Positions 3,762-40,920 of a DNA stretch of 42,705 nt are shown here, one piece after another. The stretch covers positions 1-42,705 of the IMG/VR virus record IMGVR_UViG_2778261632_000005; one strand, written 5' to 3'. The translations under genes and the position numbers were made by a program. Position 1 is the first letter of the stretch; the number at the start of each line of letters is the position of its first letter. The notes under the pieces were generated by a model that made no database searches, had not been told where the DNA came from, and saw only the letters and a program-made list of their open reading frames with translations. The stretch is from a virus. Lineage: Duplodnaviria; Heunggongvirae; Uroviricota; Caudoviricetes.

Positions 3762-4802
3762 TTATTGATAGTTTGCATTGGTATGTACCTGCTGAAGTTT
3801 GTGTTGTTTAACGAAGTGGGCCACTGCTTTTGACTGGCTGGCGATAATTTTTCTGTCACCTAGGTCGAGCGTGACGTTCTTACCGCGATAAATTATTGCC
3901 GAGCCGATTTCCTTACCGTCCAGCTTCACATACAGCACTTTCCCGATAATCTCTGTCGTAGGGATTGGCTGTGAAAGGCGATATGTTTCGCGAGCTTCAG
4001 CAATGGTTTTATGTTCGTCGATTATCGACAGGGCTTCAGCCAGAGCCGTGCCTTGCAAAGTGAACACGCCTTCATCGCTGATCGTCGCCATGGCCATCAG
4101 TTCCACGAAACGGCGAGCACTTTTAATGTTGAGTTCCGGAGCGATAGAACTGCGCGTAACCTTTGTTTTCCCCTGGGCGGCGGCTACGGCTTTATCGTGT
4201 TGGAGAACTTCACCAGCCTGTTCGCCAAACTCACGAACTCGGTCAACGGCAACATCAACAGACACAGCCCCTGATTTAACTTCCTGCTGAACGTCATGGT
4301 TCGCTGTGCTGAGTAGAAGAAGCTTTTCTACGGTGGCTACAGATTTGTTTACCAGCTTTGCAATCTCGCTGGTGGTTTGGTTGAAAGCATTATGAAGCTC
4401 CTGAATAACAGCAGCCTGTTCAATATCGGAAAGGGGGAGTTGGTTATTACTGGTCATGATGCGAGCCAGCCGCTGCACATCGTTACCGTTAAACGGCATG
4501 ATATGAATACGGTCTACTGGCTTACCAGCTTCAGCACAACGCGCATAGCAACGGCGACGGCGATGGCCTTCAACAACCCACACTCCACCTTCATCACGTG
4601 CGATAACCTCCAGCGGAGGAACGGTTCCACCGTTCATCAGATAGTTAAACAGGTCGTCATCTGCCTGGCGGGTGCGTTCGTCGTCTTCACGCTTGTTGAA
4701 ACCTTCACGCACGTGGATATGTTCAAGGCTGATAAACATCCCGGTATCGGTGCGCTTGATGGTCCCATCACGGGACATCTGTTTGAATGAGTTGGCGGCC
4801 AT
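3762..4802 (-). CDS. ParB-like nuclease-domain protein
   Basis: 346 aa; N-terminal ParB/Srx-like motif VVEGHRRRR; start ATG overlaps the stop of the upstream gene (TAATG). Confidence 0.7.
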   Translation of the reverse strand: MAANSFKQMSRDGTIKRTDTGMFISLEHIHVREGFNKREDDERTRQADDDLFNYLMNGGTVPPLEVIARDEGGVWVVEGHRRRRCYARCAEAGKPVDRIHIMPFNGNDVQRLARIMTSNNQLPLSDIEQAAVIQELHNAFNQTTSEIAKLVNKSVATVEKLLLLSTANHDVQQEVKSGAVSVDVAVDRVREFGEQAGEVLQHDKAVAAAQGKTKVTRSSIAPELNIKSARRFVELMAMATISDEGVFTLQGTALAEALSIIDEHKTIAEARETYRLSQPIPTTEIIGKVLYVKLDGKEIGSAIIYRGKNVTLDLGDRKIIASQSKAVAHFVKQHKLQQVHTNANYQ

Positions 4803-5284
4803 TACGCAGTACCTTCACGAAGTTGGTTAGCGAATAACAGAGCCTGATTACCAGCGTAAACAATGCTTTCTTCTTGCTCTTCTTTCCCTATGGCAATAGT
4901 GACGTTTGCGTACTTTTCCACGCCAGTGGCCTGGATATCGCGAATAACCTGATCGGTTACTGGAGTTAACTCGCGTAATTCTCTCTGCGCCTCCAGCATG
5001 TGCATATTGGTCGGCGATTTGGTATGACGTTCAACGATGCGGTCGCACTCTTTGGCCCAACAATTAACATCGTCGCGTAAAACAGTGTTCTCGATGGCCA
5101 GTGTTTTACGCTGTTCCATTGATTCGCACAGCGCGACACCCTGAACATCGTAGCGGTTCGCCAGTTCATTCATCAGCCACTGGGAAGCAGGTGGCAGGAG
5201 AGGGGCAGCTTTACGGGCTGCATCGATCAGTTGCTCTCTGGTCATACGTGGTTGTAACTCAGTGACGTTCTGTGTGGTCGTCAT
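4802..5284 (-). CDS. Hypothetical protein (160 aa)
   Basis: Start MTTTQNV chosen because GGAGA lies 5 nt upstream; the ORF is open further to 5395. Confidence 0.5.
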   Translation of the reverse strand: MTTTQNVTELQPRMTREQLIDAARKAAPLLPPASQWLMNELANRYDVQGVALCESMEQRKTLAIENTVLRDDVNCWAKECDRIVERHTKSPTNMHMLEAQRELRELTPVTDQVIRDIQATGVEKYANVTIAIGKEEQEESIVYAGNQALLFANQLREGTA

Positions 5285-5530
5285 GGTTAGTTTCTCCGTG
5301 TTATATGCGCCCTGCACGGCGCTGAATTTTGGTTGCACGAATCCATCGCCAAAAGGCGAATAAAAGTTTGGGTTTCGTTTCAGTAAATGCCCCATGAAGA
5401 GGCACTTAGTGAAACGGGCGACTGCAATCGCCGGTAAGTTTCTCCACTCAATTGAAAGCGCGTTCCGCTGGTTTTGGATTTAACGAACTGGCACTTAATG
5501 ACAAGGGACAGAACGCGCTTTCAGTTGAGT

Positions 5531-5576
5531 AAAAAGGGCGGTACCAGGGACTTCAAAGGTTGGTACTGGTACCGCC
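5531..5576 (-). terminator. Intrinsic terminator downstream of the tRNA
   Basis: Perfect 11-bp inverted repeat (5537-5547 / 5566-5576) followed on the minus strand by a U-run (5531-5535). Confidence 0.6.
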
Positions 5577-5628
5577 AAGACTCCACACAGCTTTCTTACT
5601 TCCTTGGATCACGAGAACTACGTGATTC

Positions 5629-5705
5629 TGGTGCAGCATGCAGGATTCGAACCTGCGACCCACGGCTTAGAAGGCCGCTGCTCTATCCATCTGAGCTAAT
5701 GCCAC
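5629..5705 (-). tRNA. tRNA-Arg (anticodon UCU), prophage-borne
   Basis: 77-nt cloverleaf read on the minus strand: D-arm GCTC/GAGC, anticodon loop CUUCUAA, T-arm GCAGG-UUCGAAU-CCUGC, 3' ACCA; the acceptor stem has two adjacent G-U pairs. Confidence 0.8.
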
Positions 5706-5709
5706 AACT

Positions 5710-5773
5710 GGAAGCGCACTCCACCTGTTTCACACCTGTCACCCATAACTGGTAAGTAAAGGAGTGCGCTTCC
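5710..5773. repeat. Perfect 13-bp inverted repeat (GGAAGCGCACTCC / GGAGTGCGCTTCC) with a 38-nt spacer
   Basis: Arms at 5710-5722 and 5761-5773; spacer contains CACCTGT twice; sits 4 nt upstream of the tRNA 5' end. Confidence 0.7.
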
Positions 5774-5885
5774 ATGTTGTGTGCCTGTCTTTTCACCACA
5801 TCAGGCTCGGTGGTTCTCGTGTACCCCTACAGCGAGAAATCGGTTAAAATCTTCTCACCCCTACAGAGAGTGATGGATTCCACCG

Positions 5886-6386
5886 ATGGACAACAAATGG
5901 TTGCAGGAAGTACTGCGTTCAATCCTGCGTGACATAGACATTAGGCGTTTAATGCATATGCTAATCATTTTCGTCATTCTCACGGTGCTTTTGCCTGACT
6001 CTGTTAAGCAGTCTGTTGGTGCTCATAATCCGGAATTCCTTCCAGCTTTCAGCCTCTACTATCTGATGATCATCTGCGTAAGTTTTTTTATTTCTTCGCT
6101 TACCAGCTTCACTACTAAATCTCTTTTAAATGCGCTTCATACATTGGCTTTACGTATTCGAGTCATCATGCTTTCAGAACCTGAAAAGCAGTGCCTTCTG
6201 TCTTTCATAAAGACCGGTGACCATGTTGTGTATGCAAAAAATCACAATCCGGTGGTTGAGCAGTTGGTCTATAAAGGCATTCTTAGGAAAACCTACTCAC
6301 TAAATTGTGGCCCAGACATGGAAGGGTACGTCATAGAAGACAAATATCATTTCCACGTGTTAAGGCACTTATCTACCAGTCTTTGA
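5886..6386 (+). CDS. Membrane protein, putative superinfection-exclusion / abortive-infection candidate
   Basis: 166 aa ORF in an AT-rich island; two predicted TM helices then an 80-aa soluble domain; weak RBS; lies between the tRNA and the repressor. Confidence 0.5.
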   Translation: MDNKWLQEVLRSILRDIDIRRLMHMLIIFVILTVLLPDSVKQSVGAHNPEFLPAFSLYYLMIICVSFFISSLTSFTTKSLLNALHTLALRIRVIMLSEPEKQCLLSFIKTGDHVVYAKNHNPVVEQLVYKGILRKTYSLNCGPDMEGYVIEDKYHFHVLRHLSTSL

Positions 6387-6622
6387 CCAAAAAGCTTTAT
6401 CTTTAAAGCAAGCTTTTTAAGCGCAATAGAAATTAGTTTTTCCAGTCGACTTCTATTGCGACGTTCTCGCCTGACCAGCTCATCGAACGTATCAGGTAGG
6501 ACCTTAATATCTGCAGGCAGCTTTTTAAGGTCACAACCGCATTCTGGGCACTTCGTATAAAGTGGCTCAAATTTCCACGATCTAGACAATGCCTCCATCT
6601 TTCTGTTTGCGTATGTGCTCAT
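6347..6622 (-). CDS. Small putative zinc-ribbon protein (91 aa), first gene of the leftward early transcript
   Basis: CPECGC motif and a basic RRERRNRSR stretch; AAGGG RBS 8 nt upstream; 3' end overlaps the convergent 166-aa ORF by 40 nt. Confidence 0.5.
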   Translation of the reverse strand: MSTYANRKMEALSRSWKFEPLYTKCPECGCDLKKLPADIKVLPDTFDELVRRERRNRSRLEKLISIALKKLALKIKLFGQRLVDKCLNTWK

Positions 6623-6691
6623 TACATGCCCTTACATTTATTCCCGGGTTTTACCAGATGAATGTAACTATGGGGTCGTCTGATGTGTTTT

Positions 6692-6746
6692 AAATGTACC
6701 TTTAGTTACCATCATGGTCAAGTAAGTTAATGTACTTTTTGTTACC
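6692..6746. promoter_or_regulatory. Two tandem operator-like repeats (putative OL / pL region)
   Basis: AAATGTACCTTTAGTTACC (6692-6710) and TTAATGTACTTTTTGTTACC (6727-6746); a third copy at 7501-7521. Confidence 0.55.
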
Positions 6747-6798
6747 TTGGTGGCGAAAAAAAATGCCAGAATGATATCTGGCATTAGAAATGAGTTAC

Positions 6799-7458
6799 TT
6801 AGATGTTCTGCGTTATCTGAACAACTTTGCCTACAATGCGGCAATTGCCATCAATGGGGATCGGCTTAAAGGCGGGATTAAGCGGCATGAGATATGAGTA
6901 AGGGCTATCCCAAACAAGTTTCTTCACAGTCGCTTCTGCTGAACCATCAAGTATTGCAACGACAATTTTCCCATACAGGTCATCAAGTTGTCCGTAATGT
7001 GGCTCAACAATAACGATTGAGCCCTCCGGAATTGATGGAAGTCCATGTGGGTTAGTCATTGACTCACCACGAACTACCAATCCGAAAACTTCATCAGAAA
7101 CGTTTGCTGTGGTTTGAGTCCATGAAATCACATCAGTAAGCCTTGAACATGCATAGGTATCAGTCCATACCCCGGCCTGAACAGCAGAGATAATAGGAAC
7201 GGCGGTAGGTGGCTTCAGGTATGGGATAACTTTGGTGTCATCTTGAGTCTCATCACCCTTGCCGTAAAGAATCCATTCAGGAGTGGTCTGTAAAGCCATC
7301 GCTAGTTGGTGAAGGTTTTCTCCGTCAGGCTTAGTTGTACCGTTCTCCCATTTGGTAACGGACACTCTACTCACCCCAAGGCGTTTAGCCAGGGTCTGCT
7401 GAGTTATATCGAGCTGGACTCGCCGGGATCTTATTCGGTCTTTCATCTCTGTTTTCAT
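6799..7458 (-). CDS. cI: Prophage repressor, cI-like (HTH plus LexA-type S24 autopeptidase)
   Basis: N-terminal HTH (QQTLAKRLGVSRVSVTKWENG), Ala-Gly cleavage site (VQAGVW), Ser nucleophile GESM and Lys (TVKKL). Confidence 0.9.
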   Translation of the reverse strand: MKTEMKDRIRSRRVQLDITQQTLAKRLGVSRVSVTKWENGTTKPDGENLHQLAMALQTTPEWILYGKGDETQDDTKVIPYLKPPTAVPIISAVQAGVWTDTYACSRLTDVISWTQTTANVSDEVFGLVVRGESMTNPHGLPSIPEGSIVIVEPHYGQLDDLYGKIVVAILDGSAEATVKKLVWDSPYSYLMPLNPAFKPIPIDGNCRIVGKVVQITQNI

Positions 7459-7550
7459 GTAACCAATGTTACATTGATTCCTTGTAACTGTTGTTTGCTA
7501 TTTAATGTACCTTTTGTTACCTTTAAGGCGTGAGTTAACCAGGAGGAACC
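7459..7550. promoter_or_regulatory. Divergent repressor/cro promoter-operator region (OR-like)
   Basis: Third operator-like repeat TTTAATGTACCTTTTGTTACC at 7501-7521 plus GTTAC/GTAAC half-site-like motifs at 7465-7490; AGGAGG RBS before cro. Confidence 0.55.
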
Positions 7551-7748
7551 ATGTTTAAAACTGACGTCATAGAACACTTCGGAGGGGTATCAAAAACCGC
7601 GAGTGTTTTGGGAATTTCCCATCCTGCAGTGTGCAGATGGGGTGATGTGATCCCTCAGAAGCAAGCTTTTGTTATCGAACGTATCACTAAGGGCAAGCTT
7701 AAATACGATGCCAGCCTTTACCAAAAGTCTACAGACACAGCAGCTTAA
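7551..7748 (+). CDS. cro: Cro-like small HTH regulator
   Basis: 65 aa, divergent from the repressor; HTH (SKTASVLGISHPAVCRW); AGGAGG RBS. Confidence 0.7.
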   Translation: MFKTDVIEHFGGVSKTASVLGISHPAVCRWGDVIPQKQAFVIERITKGKLKYDASLYQKSTDTAA

Positions 7749-38558: not shown

Positions 38559-39995
38559 TTAGAATCTAATAACTACAATATTATCAACGAGATATATTGC
38601 AAATACATTACCTGCATATAAGGTGGTTTTGTCATTTGCTTTTAGTAAAATTTCATCACGTTTATCATTATTTGCATAGGTAATATCATTTAGCCCGTTC
38701 CTCATTAAAATAAATCTTCCACCATCATAACCCCAAGAAAATGTGTCAAGCATCATGTTATTCATGAATGGATAAATGTTAATGGTTGACTCCATGACTC
38801 CAGAATGTTGTGGGCGCCCATCAATAATAAATTCTTTATGCTTTGATAAATTCAACCTGTCAAGATTACTCACTATCCTGGTTGCTAAAGATTCTGCATA
38901 TCTAAAATCTTCTCGCACTGCATTTGTAGATGCACATAAAAAAAGATAATTAGTAAAGTAAAAAAATACCGCTGGCGCAAGCCATAGCCATTTACGTTTA
39001 AAAGAACAGCACAACGCATAAAGACAGAAGAAGGATGCAGCAGAAATCCCTATAATTGTTCGTGGTATGATTGATGGATTTTGCCCATACACTCCAACTC
39101 CTGGTATAAACGTGACAAGTGCACATAAAACAATAACTATCGTCAGAAAGGTAAATAATGGTTTTGTTGATCTAAAGCACATAACGCATACAGCAACAAC
39201 AAACGCAGCGCACATGATTGCAATCGGGTATAAAAATGGTGAGTCTAGTAGTTTTAAAATGAGTATGTATGAGTTTTTGTAATTATTAAGAACTGTTTCA
39301 AGTCCCGAATAAGTCAATGGAACGATTTTATTGAAATTCAAAAAGTAATAACTTACATTAGTTATTGGGATAATAACTTTAAGGTATGCTATAGTGCCTA
39401 AAAGAAATGTTAAAGCTCTAATTATCAATACTTTGGTTATGTTTTTATAATTTTCTTTTTTTACATAAGCTCCCATGAATATCTCAATAGCGGATAGACA
39501 TATAAATAGTGCTATTGCAGCTTGGTAAAGAGAAAGGCTGGCAACAAGAGCCGTTACTGACAAAACAAAAGAAGATATTTTGTTAGTGTGTAAAATATAA
39601 GGCGTAATTGCCATGGTTACAGATAGAACCATAAAGAAGGAATCATATCTGAATAATAAATTAGAAACAAAAAAAGGAGATGCTAAGAAGCATAAAGATA
39701 GCACTATTGCTTTAATCCCTTTGCTCCCTATAAAGTATTCACATACTTTTAAAGATACTGCACTATAAAGGATTAATGCCAGAATTGTCATTCCTGGGAA
39801 GTAGTCAGGAAGAACATCTCCTGTAGTAATTGTTCTATATATAGCTTCTGCAAGAGGTCGTCCATCTCCTTGCCATCCATAATATGACCATACCGACCTA
39901 AATATGTCGTCATTATAATAACTAGTTCCTAACAGTAATGGAATGGCATAAAATAATGTCAGTCCAGCAGCAATAACTATATGTCTATTAGGCAT
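38559..39995 (-). CDS. Serotype-specific O-antigen glucosyltransferase, GtrC-like polytopic membrane protein
   Basis: 478 aa, about 10 predicted TM helices, strongly AT-rich coding sequence, immediately downstream of gtrA-gtrB. Confidence 0.75.
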   Translation of the reverse strand: MPNRHIVIAAGLTLFYAIPLLLGTSYYNDDIFRSVWSYYGWQGDGRPLAEAIYRTITTGDVLPDYFPGMTILALILYSAVSLKVCEYFIGSKGIKAIVLSLCFLASPFFVSNLLFRYDSFFMVLSVTMAITPYILHTNKISSFVLSVTALVASLSLYQAAIALFICLSAIEIFMGAYVKKENYKNITKVLIIRALTFLLGTIAYLKVIIPITNVSYYFLNFNKIVPLTYSGLETVLNNYKNSYILILKLLDSPFLYPIAIMCAAFVVAVCVMCFRSTKPLFTFLTIVIVLCALVTFIPGVGVYGQNPSIIPRTIIGISAASFFCLYALCCSFKRKWLWLAPAVFFYFTNYLFLCASTNAVREDFRYAESLATRIVSNLDRLNLSKHKEFIIDGRPQHSGVMESTINIYPFMNNMMLDTFSWGYDGGRFILMRNGLNDITYANNDKRDEILLKANDKTTLYAGNVFAIYLVDNIVVIRF

Positions 39996-39999
39996 GATA

Positions 40000-40920
40000 T
40001 TACCTCTTATTCTTCTTTATAAGATATTTTGGCCTTTTTTTGGTTTCTAAATATATTCTACCAATATACTCACCAAGTACTCCAATTCCTATTAATTGAA
40101 TTCCACCAAGAAACAGAATAGACACTAGCAGGGATGGATAGCCCCGTACGGCGTTACCAAACGCTAAAGTGTTGAATATCATCCAGGCGCCATACAAAAA
40201 AGCGCAACCGGCTACCACTAGCCCAATATACGTCCAGATGCGAAGCGGGAAGGTCGAGAAAGAAGTTATGCCTTCTAGTGCTAAATTCCATAGTTTCCAG
40301 CCATTAAATTTTGAGTCTCCGGCAACACGTTCAGCTCTTGCATACTCAACAACATCAATTTTCCCACCAACCCATGACAAAACACCTTTCATGAAGAGAT
40401 TGCGCTCAGGAAGCAGTTTGATGTTTTCAACAACTTCGCGTGACATCAGGCGAAAATCACCCACGTTCTCTTCAATTTTTGGGTTGCTAATTTTGTTGTG
40501 TAGCTTGTAGAACCACTCAGCAGATTTGCGCTTTAGCCTTCCATCGGTAGAGCGGTCTGTTCTTTTAGCCAGAACCATATCAGCGCCATCCTGCCACTTA
40601 GCAATGAGGTGCGGGATGACATCGATAGGGTCTTGCAGATCAACATCGATTGGGATGACTGCTTCGCCGGTAGCATTATCGAGACCTGCGAATAGGGCAG
40701 GCTCTTTACCAAAGTTTCTGGTGAAAGATAGAGGTACCACCAATTTGTCAGAGACAGCAAGTGCATTGATGATGGATTCTGTTGAATCGCTGCTCCCGTC
40801 GTTAATAAATACAATCTCAATGTCGTACTCTTTTAGGCCTTCAAACTCGCGTACCGTTTTATAAAATATAGGTATTGTGGCCTCTTCGTTAAAGACCGGA
40901 ACAACTAAAGAAATTTTCAT
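40000..40920 (-). CDS. gtrB: Bactoprenol glucosyltransferase GtrB (GT2)
   Basis: 306 aa; GT2 motifs ([24 protein letters not shown]) and two C-terminal TM helices. Confidence 0.85.

What the first reader, a model, noticed from the sequence alone, without database searches (positions are those of the whole stretch)
5886..6622. AT-rich two-gene moron beside the repressor: membrane protein plus small zinc-ribbon protein
Between the tRNA and cI lies a markedly AT-rich island with two convergent, 40-nt-overlapping ORFs: a 166-aa protein with two TM helices and a soluble C-terminal domain (+ strand), and a 91-aa CPECGC protein (- strand) that is the first gene after the operator repeats. This is the position lambda uses for rexAB/sieB-type exclusion genes, and the 91-aa ORF occupies the N position without an N-like arginine-rich motif. 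It is a candidate lysogen-expressed exclusion or abortive-infection module.
Basis: partly seen in the sequence, partly recalled or inferred. Interest (0 to 1): 0.65.

Follow-up and report, generated by a model that had tools for sequence, protein, structure and literature searches.

The report
SieB exclusion cassette facing an orphan early gene
The 166-aa gene is an ordinary, already annotated prophage superinfection-exclusion gene (sieB) that also has the internal start and antisense-RNA sequence of the phage P22 system, and the 91-aa gene facing it is a real but unannotated early phage gene of unknown function, not a partner in a two-gene defence module.

Summary
Both ORFs exist as described: 5886-6386 (+, 166 aa) and 6347-6622 (-, 91 aa), with a 40-nt 3' overlap.

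- the region matching P22's annotated PsieB promoter;
- an invariant Met25, which is the Esc start in P22;
- on the opposite strand (~5890->5781), a close homologue of the P22 sas antisense RNA.

**91-aa ORF.** PGAP does not annotate it here, but it looks like a real gene. Its dN/dS is 0.2-0.3, the lowest of six frames. It has a Shine-Dalgarno sequence and is the first gene after PL/OL. It has no family match and no similarity to N. No nut sites were detected, and it has one CPxCGC knuckle rather than a zinc ribbon. Its first ~32 residues recur as the first PL product in related phages that carry a different convergent membrane-protein gene. Its basic helical C-terminus occurs only next to this sieB.

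**Verdict.** This is a known exclusion cassette convergent with an orphan early gene. The two should be oppositely regulated, so they are not one module. Interest is modest.

The parts
5886..6386 (+). sieB: 166-aa superinfection exclusion protein B (two N-terminal hydrophobic segments plus a C-terminal winged-helix domain)
5958..6386 (+). Esc-equivalent: in-frame internal start at Met25 (a second ATG at Met23, 5952)
   Evidence: P22 esc is annotated as starting at sieB codon 25. Met25 is invariant in 17 SieB sequences, including P22 and lambda (A6). AGG lies 7 nt upstream of the Met23 ATG (read).
5820..5850 (+). PsieB-equivalent promoter region (-10-like TAAAAT at 5845-5850)
   Evidence: Aligns column for column with the annotated P22 PsieB (L005 1541-1571). 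Activity was not tested.
5781..5890 (-). sas-like antisense RNA region, complementary to the sieB start codon, RBS and promoter but not to the Esc start
   Evidence: About 90% identical to the 127-nt P22 sas RNA sequence given in PMC13397905. Also conserved upstream of lambda sieB. Predicted to form three stem-loops, -36.8 kcal/mol, z -1.8. Expression was not tested.
5781..5814 (.). 34-nt core at the distal edge of the cassette (the 3' third of sas)
   Evidence: blastn-short finds it in 45 of 52 fetched loci. It is 94-100% identical in the 26 loci that share only the core and carry a different convergent gene instead of sieB; lambda, P22 and Kp4866-6 match over longer stretches that include it.
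6347..6622 (-). orf91: unannotated 91-aa early gene. Residues 1-32 form a Cys-knuckle module (CPxCGC); residues ~44-91 form a basic amphipathic helix
   Evidence: Nine homologue clusters at 62-96% identity. dN/dS 0.20 (codons 1-34) and 0.23 (codons 53-78), each the lowest of six frames. SD-like AAGGG 6 nt upstream of the ATG. Not annotated by PGAP. K+R 22 against D+E 11. AF2 gives a single helix 43-89 at low confidence.
6693..6721 (-). PL-like promoter (TTGACC-17-TACATT)
   Evidence: Consensus scan, 9 of 12 matches. It overlaps the operator repeats. This is a consensus match only.
6658..6755 (.). OL operator repeats (6691-6719, 6727-6755, and a related site at 6658-6673)
   Evidence: Direct-repeat family D2, with a third copy in OR at 7502-7530, and inverted repeat I12 pairing 6658-6673 with 7463-7478.
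6762..6785 (-). Intrinsic terminator after cI (9-bp stem followed by T8)
   Evidence: Terminator scan. It separates the cI transcript from PL/orf91. Sub-threshold Rfam AgvB match over 6758-6810.
6799..7458 (-). cI-type repressor (context)
   Evidence: HTH_3 E 3e-16 and Peptidase_S24 E 1.6e-22.
5629..5705 (-). tRNA-Arg(UCU) in the PL operon (context)
   Evidence: ARAGORN. Rfam tRNA 65.6 bits.

Best explanation
The locus is a P22/lambda-type sieB cassette lying tail to tail with the first gene of the early leftward (PL) operon.

Shown by sequence:
- The 166-aa ORF is a SieB family protein with a membrane-anchoring N-terminus and a winged-helix C-terminal domain.
- Its upstream region matches P22's annotated PsieB.
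- Met25, the start of the truncated Esc protein in P22, is invariant.
- The opposite strand encodes a close homologue of the P22 sas antisense RNA.
- orf91 is a conserved protein-coding gene ~64 nt downstream of PL/OL.

Inferred from what the cited papers report for P22:
- In the lysogen CI shuts PL. sieB is transcribed from its own promoter and yields SieB plus Esc. When a heteroimmune lambdoid phage superinfects, SieB stops macromolecular synthesis midway through the lytic cycle (an abortive-infection type of exclusion).
- When this phage itself grows lytically, PL fires. orf91 is translated and transcription continues antisense through sieB. That gives rise to, or accompanies, the sas-like RNA, which pairs with the sieB translation start but not the Esc start. 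SieB synthesis then falls while Esc continues, and the phage escapes its own exclusion.

orf91 is not part of the exclusion module. My best guess is that it is a small early protein that binds a host or nucleic-acid target through its 32-residue Cys-knuckle module, with a basic helix that may dimerise added in this lineage. Its function is unknown.
For: **SieB identity**
- Family membership.
- Purifying selection, dN/dS 0.06.
- Two hydrophobic segments.
- Winged-helix fold of residues ~95-166.

**P22-type regulation**
- The start codon aligns with the P22 sieB start, and Met25 is conserved.
- Window 5780-5968 is 81% identical to P22 DNA although the proteins are only ~27% identical. The conserved block coincides with the sequenced P22 sas RNA and is also present in lambda.
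- P22 biology: prophage expression and a mid-cycle shut-off of macromolecular synthesis (PMC10461980); sas induces a switch between the peptides encoded by sieB (PMC12197685; PMC7067206).

**orf91**
- Conserved synteny cI -> orf91 -> <- sieB with different cI and cro alleles.
- dN/dS.
- SD and a short leader directly after PL in every locus examined.
- A strong terminator between cI and PL.
Against: - No expression data were available. The promoters are consensus or homology calls only.
- The simple scan found no sigma-70 promoter for sas on the minus strand, so how the sas-like RNA is made (its own promoter or processing of the PL transcript) is open.
- SieB here is only 23-27% identical to lambda and P22 SieB and lacks their C-terminal tail. 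Its target range and even its phenotype are therefore extrapolated.
- The basic C-terminal half of orf91 is found only next to this sieB type, so a functional link to SieB cannot be excluded.
- The AF2 model of orf91 is poor (pLDDT 58).
Confidence: 0.75

Rival explanations
1. orf91 is a functional analogue of lambda N / P22 gp24. On this view it is an antiterminator that uses its internal arginine-rich helix to bind an RNA site and lets PL (and PR) transcription read through terminators.
For: It occupies the N position, as the first PL gene convergent with sieB. Residues 51-59, RRERRNRSR, contain the RRERR run that I recall from memory in the lambda N arginine-rich motif; this was not compared here. 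The protein is small and basic.
Against: - hhalign probability is 0.2-0.5% against P22 gp24 and lambda N. There is no Pfam N family hit.
- The basic stretch is internal and variable in relatives (LILKRQNRTR, IIVKGRRRTR).
- The boxA pattern gives 37 hits against 38 expected. No nut-like sequence is shared by the PL and PR transcripts.
- The PL leader is only ~64 nt and the cro-to-next-gene gap is 25 nt.
- No intrinsic terminator was found on the PL strand between 6622 and 5300.
- Sister phages keep only the first 32 residues under selection.
Confidence: 0.07
2. orf91, at least its basic C-terminal helix, is an early-expressed accessory of the sieB cassette. It could be a second self-immunity factor that neutralises SieB, or one that helps sas pair with sieB mRNA during the phage's own lytic growth.
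For: The C-terminal half (residues ~35-91) occurs only in loci that carry this SieB subtype. It lies inside the cassette-specific DNA between the shared 32-codon module and sieB, and it is under purifying selection (dN/dS 0.23-0.30). Its timing (PL) is right for self-protection.
Against: - Physical adjacency alone explains the co-occurrence.
- P22 and lambda have other genes (24, N) at that position, and Kp4866-6, whose SieB is 63% identical, has no ORF there at all.
- The sequence features of the P22 self-immunity system (Esc start, sas homologue) are already present.
- 4 of 14 relatives lose the part that overlaps sieB.
Confidence: 0.12
3. The two ORFs form a two-component abortive-infection system of the RexA/RexB kind, with a soluble sensor and a membrane effector, both expressed from the prophage.
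For: It pairs a membrane protein with a small soluble protein next to the repressor.
Against: - The genes are convergent and should be oppositely regulated. orf91 is directly behind the operator-controlled PL and is separated from cI by a strong terminator.
- There is no PADLOC hit for either protein.
- In the cited literature P22 sieB exclusion is attributed to the sieB gene, and homologous SieB occurs without orf91.
Confidence: 0.03
4. orf91 is a chance ORF created by the AT-rich spacer and the end of sieB, and PGAP was right to leave it out.
For: PGAP does not call it in either E. coli genome. No family or structure match was found. In sister phages the equivalent ORF's tail is an unconstrained shadow of the opposite-strand gene (dN/dS 1.05 against 0.13).
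Against: - The frame is kept open in 14 distinct sequences down to 71% nucleotide identity.
- dN/dS is 0.20-0.30 and is the lowest of six frames in both halves.
- The SD and start codon are conserved.
- The N-terminal module is also constrained in the sister class (0.24).
- NCBI carries a 91-aa member of the same 90%-identity cluster as a Citrobacter hypothetical protein, WP_268064832.1.
Confidence: 0.05

Closest known systems
P22 sieB / esc / sas superinfection-exclusion system (Susskind 1974; Ranade & Poteete 1993, as cited in PMC10461980 and PMC12197685)
   Same: Pfam SieB family. Same position and orientation relative to the first PL gene. The upstream promoter region and the antisense sas sequence are 81-93% identical at DNA level. 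The sieB start codon and the internal Met25 (Esc start) are conserved.
   Different: The protein is only ~27% identical and is 166 aa rather than 192 aa. It lacks an 11-residue linker segment and the C-terminal tail. The convergent neighbour is orf91 rather than gene 24. A tRNA-Arg follows the cassette instead of ral. No phenotype has been tested.
Lambda sieB (git), convergent with N
   Same: Same family, same slot, and the same conserved block upstream of sieB.
   Different: About 23% identity. Lambda has N and nutL upstream, and rexAB beside cI; neither is present here.
Lambda N / P22 gp24 antiterminators
   Same: orf91 holds their map position, is small and basic, and has a short Arg-rich run.
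   Different: No sequence or profile similarity, no N-terminal arginine-rich motif, no nut sites detected, and no proximal terminators found.
Zinc-ribbon proteins (for example Pfam Zn_ribbon_8)
   Same: One CPxCG knuckle preceded by a beta-hairpin-like KFxPLYxK stretch.
   Different: There is no second knuckle. Only Cys25 and Cys28 are invariant in both alignments; Cys30 is nearly invariant and Cys86 lies in the dispensable tail. The score is below the Pfam cut-off.
Morons of lambdoid phages (Juhala et al. 2000 concept, as cited in PMC4104026)
   Same: sieB has its own promoter region, lower GC than its surroundings, and is replaced by a different membrane-protein gene, or by nothing, at the same slot in related phages.
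   Different: orf91 is not part of the moron. Only its C-terminal coding half lies in cassette-specific DNA.

Membership tests
SieB (PF14163) superinfection exclusion protein B | Sequence match to the family profile above the curated cut-off | tested here: met
   70.1 bits against a 26-bit cut-off, E 2e-19, profile positions 1-121 of 147. PHROG 1301 E 1.4e-23.
SieB (PF14163) superinfection exclusion protein B | N-terminal membrane-spanning segments | tested here: met
   Two hydrophobic stretches, about residues 22-40 and 51-72, which are helical in the AF2 model.
P22-type sieB/esc/sas system | Gene lies distal to and convergent with the first PL gene, and has its own promoter | tested here: met
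   Synteny. The promoter region aligns with the annotated P22 PsieB. Promoter activity was not tested.
P22-type sieB/esc/sas system | In-frame internal start giving the truncated Esc protein | tested here: met
   Met25 is invariant in 17 family members, including P22, where esc starts at codon 25. Translation was not tested.
P22-type sieB/esc/sas system | Antisense sas RNA covering the sieB translation start | tested here: met
   Minus strand 5890->5781 aligns with the sequenced P22 sas RNA. Whether the RNA is actually made cannot be tested with these tools.
P22-type sieB/esc/sas system | Prophage-expressed abortion of superinfecting heteroimmune phage | not testable with these tools
   Needs lysogen challenge experiments.
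Lambda N-type antiterminator (for orf91) | Sequence or profile similarity to N / gp24 | tested here: not met
   hhalign probability 0.2% and 0.5%. No Pfam hit.
Lambda N-type antiterminator (for orf91) | nutL and nutR (boxA + boxB) sites in both early transcripts | tested here: not met
   boxA pattern gives 37 hits against 38 expected. No shared inverted repeat between the PL and PR transcripts. The leader is ~64 nt and the cro-to-next-gene gap is 25 nt.
Lambda N-type antiterminator (for orf91) | N-terminal arginine-rich RNA-binding motif | tested here: not met
   The basic run is at residues 51-59 and is variable in relatives.
Zinc ribbon (for orf91) | Two Cys/His knuckles giving four metal ligands | tested here: not met
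   There is a single CPxCGC knuckle and no His. The fourth Cys (C86) is absent from the 81-aa relatives. Zn_ribbon_8 scores 14.2 bits against 34.4. Metal binding itself was not tested.
Moron (for sieB) | Independent transcription unit that is present or absent, or replaced, among otherwise related phages and has deviant base composition | tested here: met
   A different convergent gene occupies the same slot in L020-L049, and mEp390 has no such gene there. GC is 0.415 against 0.476. The promoter is inferred by homology.
RexAB-like or other catalogued defence systems | Match to defence-system protein models | tested here: not met
   No PADLOC hit for either protein at E <= 0.1.

The most novel reading that the evidence does not exclude
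The PL-proximal slot may be a modular system with three parts:
- A conserved 32-residue Cys-knuckle microprotein, always the first product of PL in a group of lambdoid phages in which no N homologue or nut sites were detected.
- An exchangeable convergent membrane-protein moron, either SieB or an unrelated 105-139-aa protein.
- A near-invariant 34-nt core that forms the 3' end of sas and would act as a common scaffold for an antisense RNA against whichever moron sits in the slot.

In the sieB lineage the microprotein has gained a selected basic helix. That helix could be a new early regulator or a protein-level anti-SieB factor.
Probability: 0.2. Interest if true: 0.6.

Novelty: new member of a known kind. 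Interest (0 to 1): 0.3.

Why it matters
For annotation, the 166-aa gene needs no new name. The record could add three features: the Esc start, the sas-like RNA, and the missing 91-aa gene.

Two points have some wider interest:
- SieB's mechanism is poorly understood. The model here suggests that a membrane anchor is joined to a winged-helix domain, which gives a concrete domain to mutate.
- The group of lambdoid phages sampled here (the SieB protein cluster includes E. coli, Salmonella, Citrobacter and Enterobacter sequences; the orf91 cluster has a Citrobacter entry) has an uncharacterised Cys-knuckle protein where N normally sits, and no nut sites were detected.

Finding what that protein does would show how these phages run their early programme.

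Tried and rejected
1. **Hairpins inside the orf91 C-terminal coding region** (6390-6417 and 6421-6460), considered as a conserved sieB or PL terminator. They are not conserved in relatives and there is no consistent structure.
2. **Distant hits P0010 and P0013** from the 1.8-billion-protein profile search. They are repetitive junk translations.
3. **L052 as a distant full-length homologue.** It is a canonical four-Cys ribbon in an unrelated 58-kb viral contig.
4. **Rfam AgvB match at the cI terminator.** It is below threshold, and the anti-GcvB seed is deleted.
5. **AF2 model of orf91.** pLDDT is 58, too poor for a fold search.
6. **Profile of the 40-residue N-terminal module against the 5.8-billion-protein set.** Nothing new was found.
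7. **PDB sequence search.** Only chance matches with E > 0.4.
8. **Search for a sas promoter.** There is none on the minus strand in the consensus scan. I read the minus strand by eye, and the best candidate -10 there (CATTTG) matches the consensus at 2 of 6 positions.
9. **The original sieB and sas papers** (PubMed 8335629 and 8339929) are not held in the library.
10. **The mEp390 homologue of the alternative moron.** It lies elsewhere in that phage, antisense to an annotated gene, and is uninformative.

Full report
**Observation**

The two ORFs are real and lie at the stated coordinates: 5886-6386 (+, 166 aa) and 6347-6622 (-, 91 aa). They are convergent and share 40 nt. A tRNA-Arg(UCU) lies at 5629-5705 (-). 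A cI-type repressor (HTH_3 + Peptidase_S24) lies at 6799-7458 (-), with a P22-Cro-like gene at 7551-7748.

Three copies of an operator-like repeat lie at 6691-6719, 6727-6755 and 7502-7530. A PL-like promoter runs 6721->6693 on the minus strand. Together these place the 91-aa ORF ~64 nt downstream of PL. A strong intrinsic terminator (6785->6762, minus strand) separates it from cI.

The AT-richness is modest. GC is 0.415 against a window mean of 0.476, and 7.4% of equal-sized windows are as low.

**Provenance**

Window 5400-7600 is 99.9% identical to a prophage in two of 5,426 complete E. coli genomes. In those genomes PGAP annotates the 166-aa ORF as 'super-infection exclusion protein B'. It annotates nothing between sieB and cI.

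**The 166-aa ORF is SieB**

It matches Pfam PF14163 at 70.1 bits (cut-off 26) and PHROG 1301. It is 27% identical to P22 SieB and 23% identical to lambda SieB (tblastn 26.8-29.1% to the phage SieBs matched over most of their length). It is 63% identical to a SieB in Klebsiella phage Kp4866-6. Among ten related loci it is under strong purifying selection (dN/dS 0.06).

**The cassette carries the sequence features of the P22 regulatory system**

Window 5780-5968 is 81% identical to P22 DNA even though the proteins are only ~27% identical. In the annotated P22 record this block covers PsieB, the sieB start and the esc start. The ATG at 5886 aligns with the P22 sieB start. Met25, where P22 Esc begins, is invariant in 17 SieB sequences, including lambda and P22.

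The 127-nt P22 sas RNA sequence is given in PMC13397905. It aligns with the window's minus strand from ~5890 to ~5781. It therefore covers the sieB start codon, ribosome-binding site and promoter, but not the Esc start at 5958. Lambda has the same block upstream of its sieB.

The cited papers describe P22 sieB as follows:
- It is prophage-expressed, and macromolecular synthesis stops midway through the lytic cycle of superinfecting P22-like phages but not of P22 itself (PMC10461980).
- sas induces a translational switch between the peptides encoded by sieB (PMC12197685).

I infer that the same logic applies here. The simple scan found no minus-strand promoter for sas. The RNA may therefore be processed from PL read-through, which necessarily runs antisense across sieB.

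**The 91-aa ORF is a real gene but an orphan**

- The 5.8-billion-protein set holds nine homologue clusters at 62-96% identity.
- Every locus recovered has the order cI -> orf91 -> <- sieB, with different cI and cro alleles.
- Over 14 distinct sequences, dN/dS is 0.20 for codons 1-34, 0.30 for codons 35-78 and 0.23 for codons 53-78. Each value is the lowest of the six frames.
- A purine-rich SD precedes the ATG, and the leader after PL is short in all loci.
- Pfam, PHROGs, NCBIfam, PADLOC and PDB sequences give nothing significant.
- tblastn against 50,697 phage records finds nothing.
- NCBI lists a 91-aa member of the cluster of the 90%-identical homologue as a Citrobacter hypothetical protein.

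The protein is basic (22 K+R against 11 D+E) and not hydrophobic. AF2 predicts only a long helix over residues 43-89, at low confidence.

It is not a zinc ribbon in the usual sense. It has one CPxCGC knuckle and no His. Cys86 lies in a tail that 4 of 14 relatives lack.

**orf91 is not N-like by any test available**

- hhalign probabilities against P22 gp24 and lambda N are below 1%.
- A boxA pattern occurs at chance frequency, 37 hits against 38 expected.
- No sequence is shared in inverted orientation between the two early transcripts.
- The cro-to-next-gene gap is 25 nt.
- No intrinsic terminator was found on the PL strand in the first ~1.3 kb.

**Mosaic structure**

A scan of viral contigs returned 40 loci. 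Seven encode full-length relatives, and all seven are followed by the same SieB subtype.

Most of the other 33 share only the first ~34 residues of orf91 (a few tblastn matches extend to 47-78 residues). tblastn finds no SieB in any of them. In the seven inspected, a different convergent membrane-protein gene (105-139 aa) takes its place. Its stop codon abuts codon 32 of the orf91-like ORF.

In those loci, dN/dS of the ORF after codon 32 is 1.05 in its own frame against 0.13 in the opposite gene's frame. The tail is thus an unconstrained shadow of the opposite gene. The first 31 codons remain constrained at 0.24.

So the conserved unit is a 32-residue Cys-knuckle module (Cys25, Cys28, Gly29 and Leu32 invariant; Pro20, Tyr22, Pro26 and Cys30 nearly so). 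Only in the sieB lineage is it joined to a selected basic helix.

On the far side of the slot, a 34-nt core (window 5781-5814) was found in 45 of 52 fetched loci. It is 94-100% identical in the 26 loci that carry the other gene and share only the core. Lambda, P22 and Kp4866-6 match over longer stretches that include it. It corresponds to the 3' third of sas.

**Conclusion**

The 'two-gene module' reading is not supported. One gene should be expressed in the lysogen and the other is a repressor-controlled early gene. In addition, a SieB that is 63% identical occurs without orf91.

The function of orf91 remains unknown. I favour a small early host- or nucleic-acid-binding protein. An anti-SieB accessory role (about 0.12) and an N-like role (about 0.07) are not excluded.

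Noticed in passing
window 5781-5814: A 34-nt core (minus strand AACCACCGAGCCTGATGTGGTGAAAAGACAGGCAC) was found in 45 of 52 fetched loci. It is 94-100% identical in the 26 loci that carry a different convergent gene and share only the core; lambda, P22 and Klebsiella phage Kp4866-6 match over longer stretches that include it. It forms the 3' third of the P22 sas RNA. In the non-sieB loci it could also supply a promoter (TTTTCA-18-TATTCT) for the alternative gene.
   Followed up: partly
L020-L049 (for example L022 4094-4483, minus strand): Related phages carry, in place of sieB, an unrelated 105-139-aa membrane protein (MNNPLSNLQLDVWYKVLIV...) with no Pfam, PHROG or PADLOC match. This is probably another prophage-expressed gene in the same slot. 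The orf91-like ORF reads through it in the codon-aligned antisense frame for 65-100 codons without constraint.
   Followed up: partly
window 5446-5530 and 5709-5774: The tRNA-Arg(UCU) lies in the PL operon between two long, nearly perfect hairpins (20-nt arms, 95% complementary; 14-nt arms, 100% complementary). These may be processing structures.
   Followed up: no
window 6758-6810 (-): The 3' end of cI plus its terminator gives a sub-threshold Rfam match to the prophage anti-sRNA AgvB (30.9 bits, gathering score 56). Only the conserved 3' hairpins align, and the anti-GcvB seed is missing.
   Followed up: partly
window 38559-40920 (-): The most AT-rich part of the window (GC ~0.32) encodes a 478-aa polytopic membrane protein. 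Next to it is a 306-aa ORF whose N-terminus ([13 protein letters not shown]...) I recognised by eye as resembling a GtrB-type family 2 glycosyltransferase; no family search was run. Together they may be a gtr-type O-antigen modification cassette.
   Followed up: no
[not shown]
   Followed up: partly
window 3762-5395 (-): The PL operon continues with a 197-aa protein of unknown function (PHROG 14171) and a ParB-like protein (PHROG 1033). These are conserved downstream in most of the related loci.
   Followed up: no
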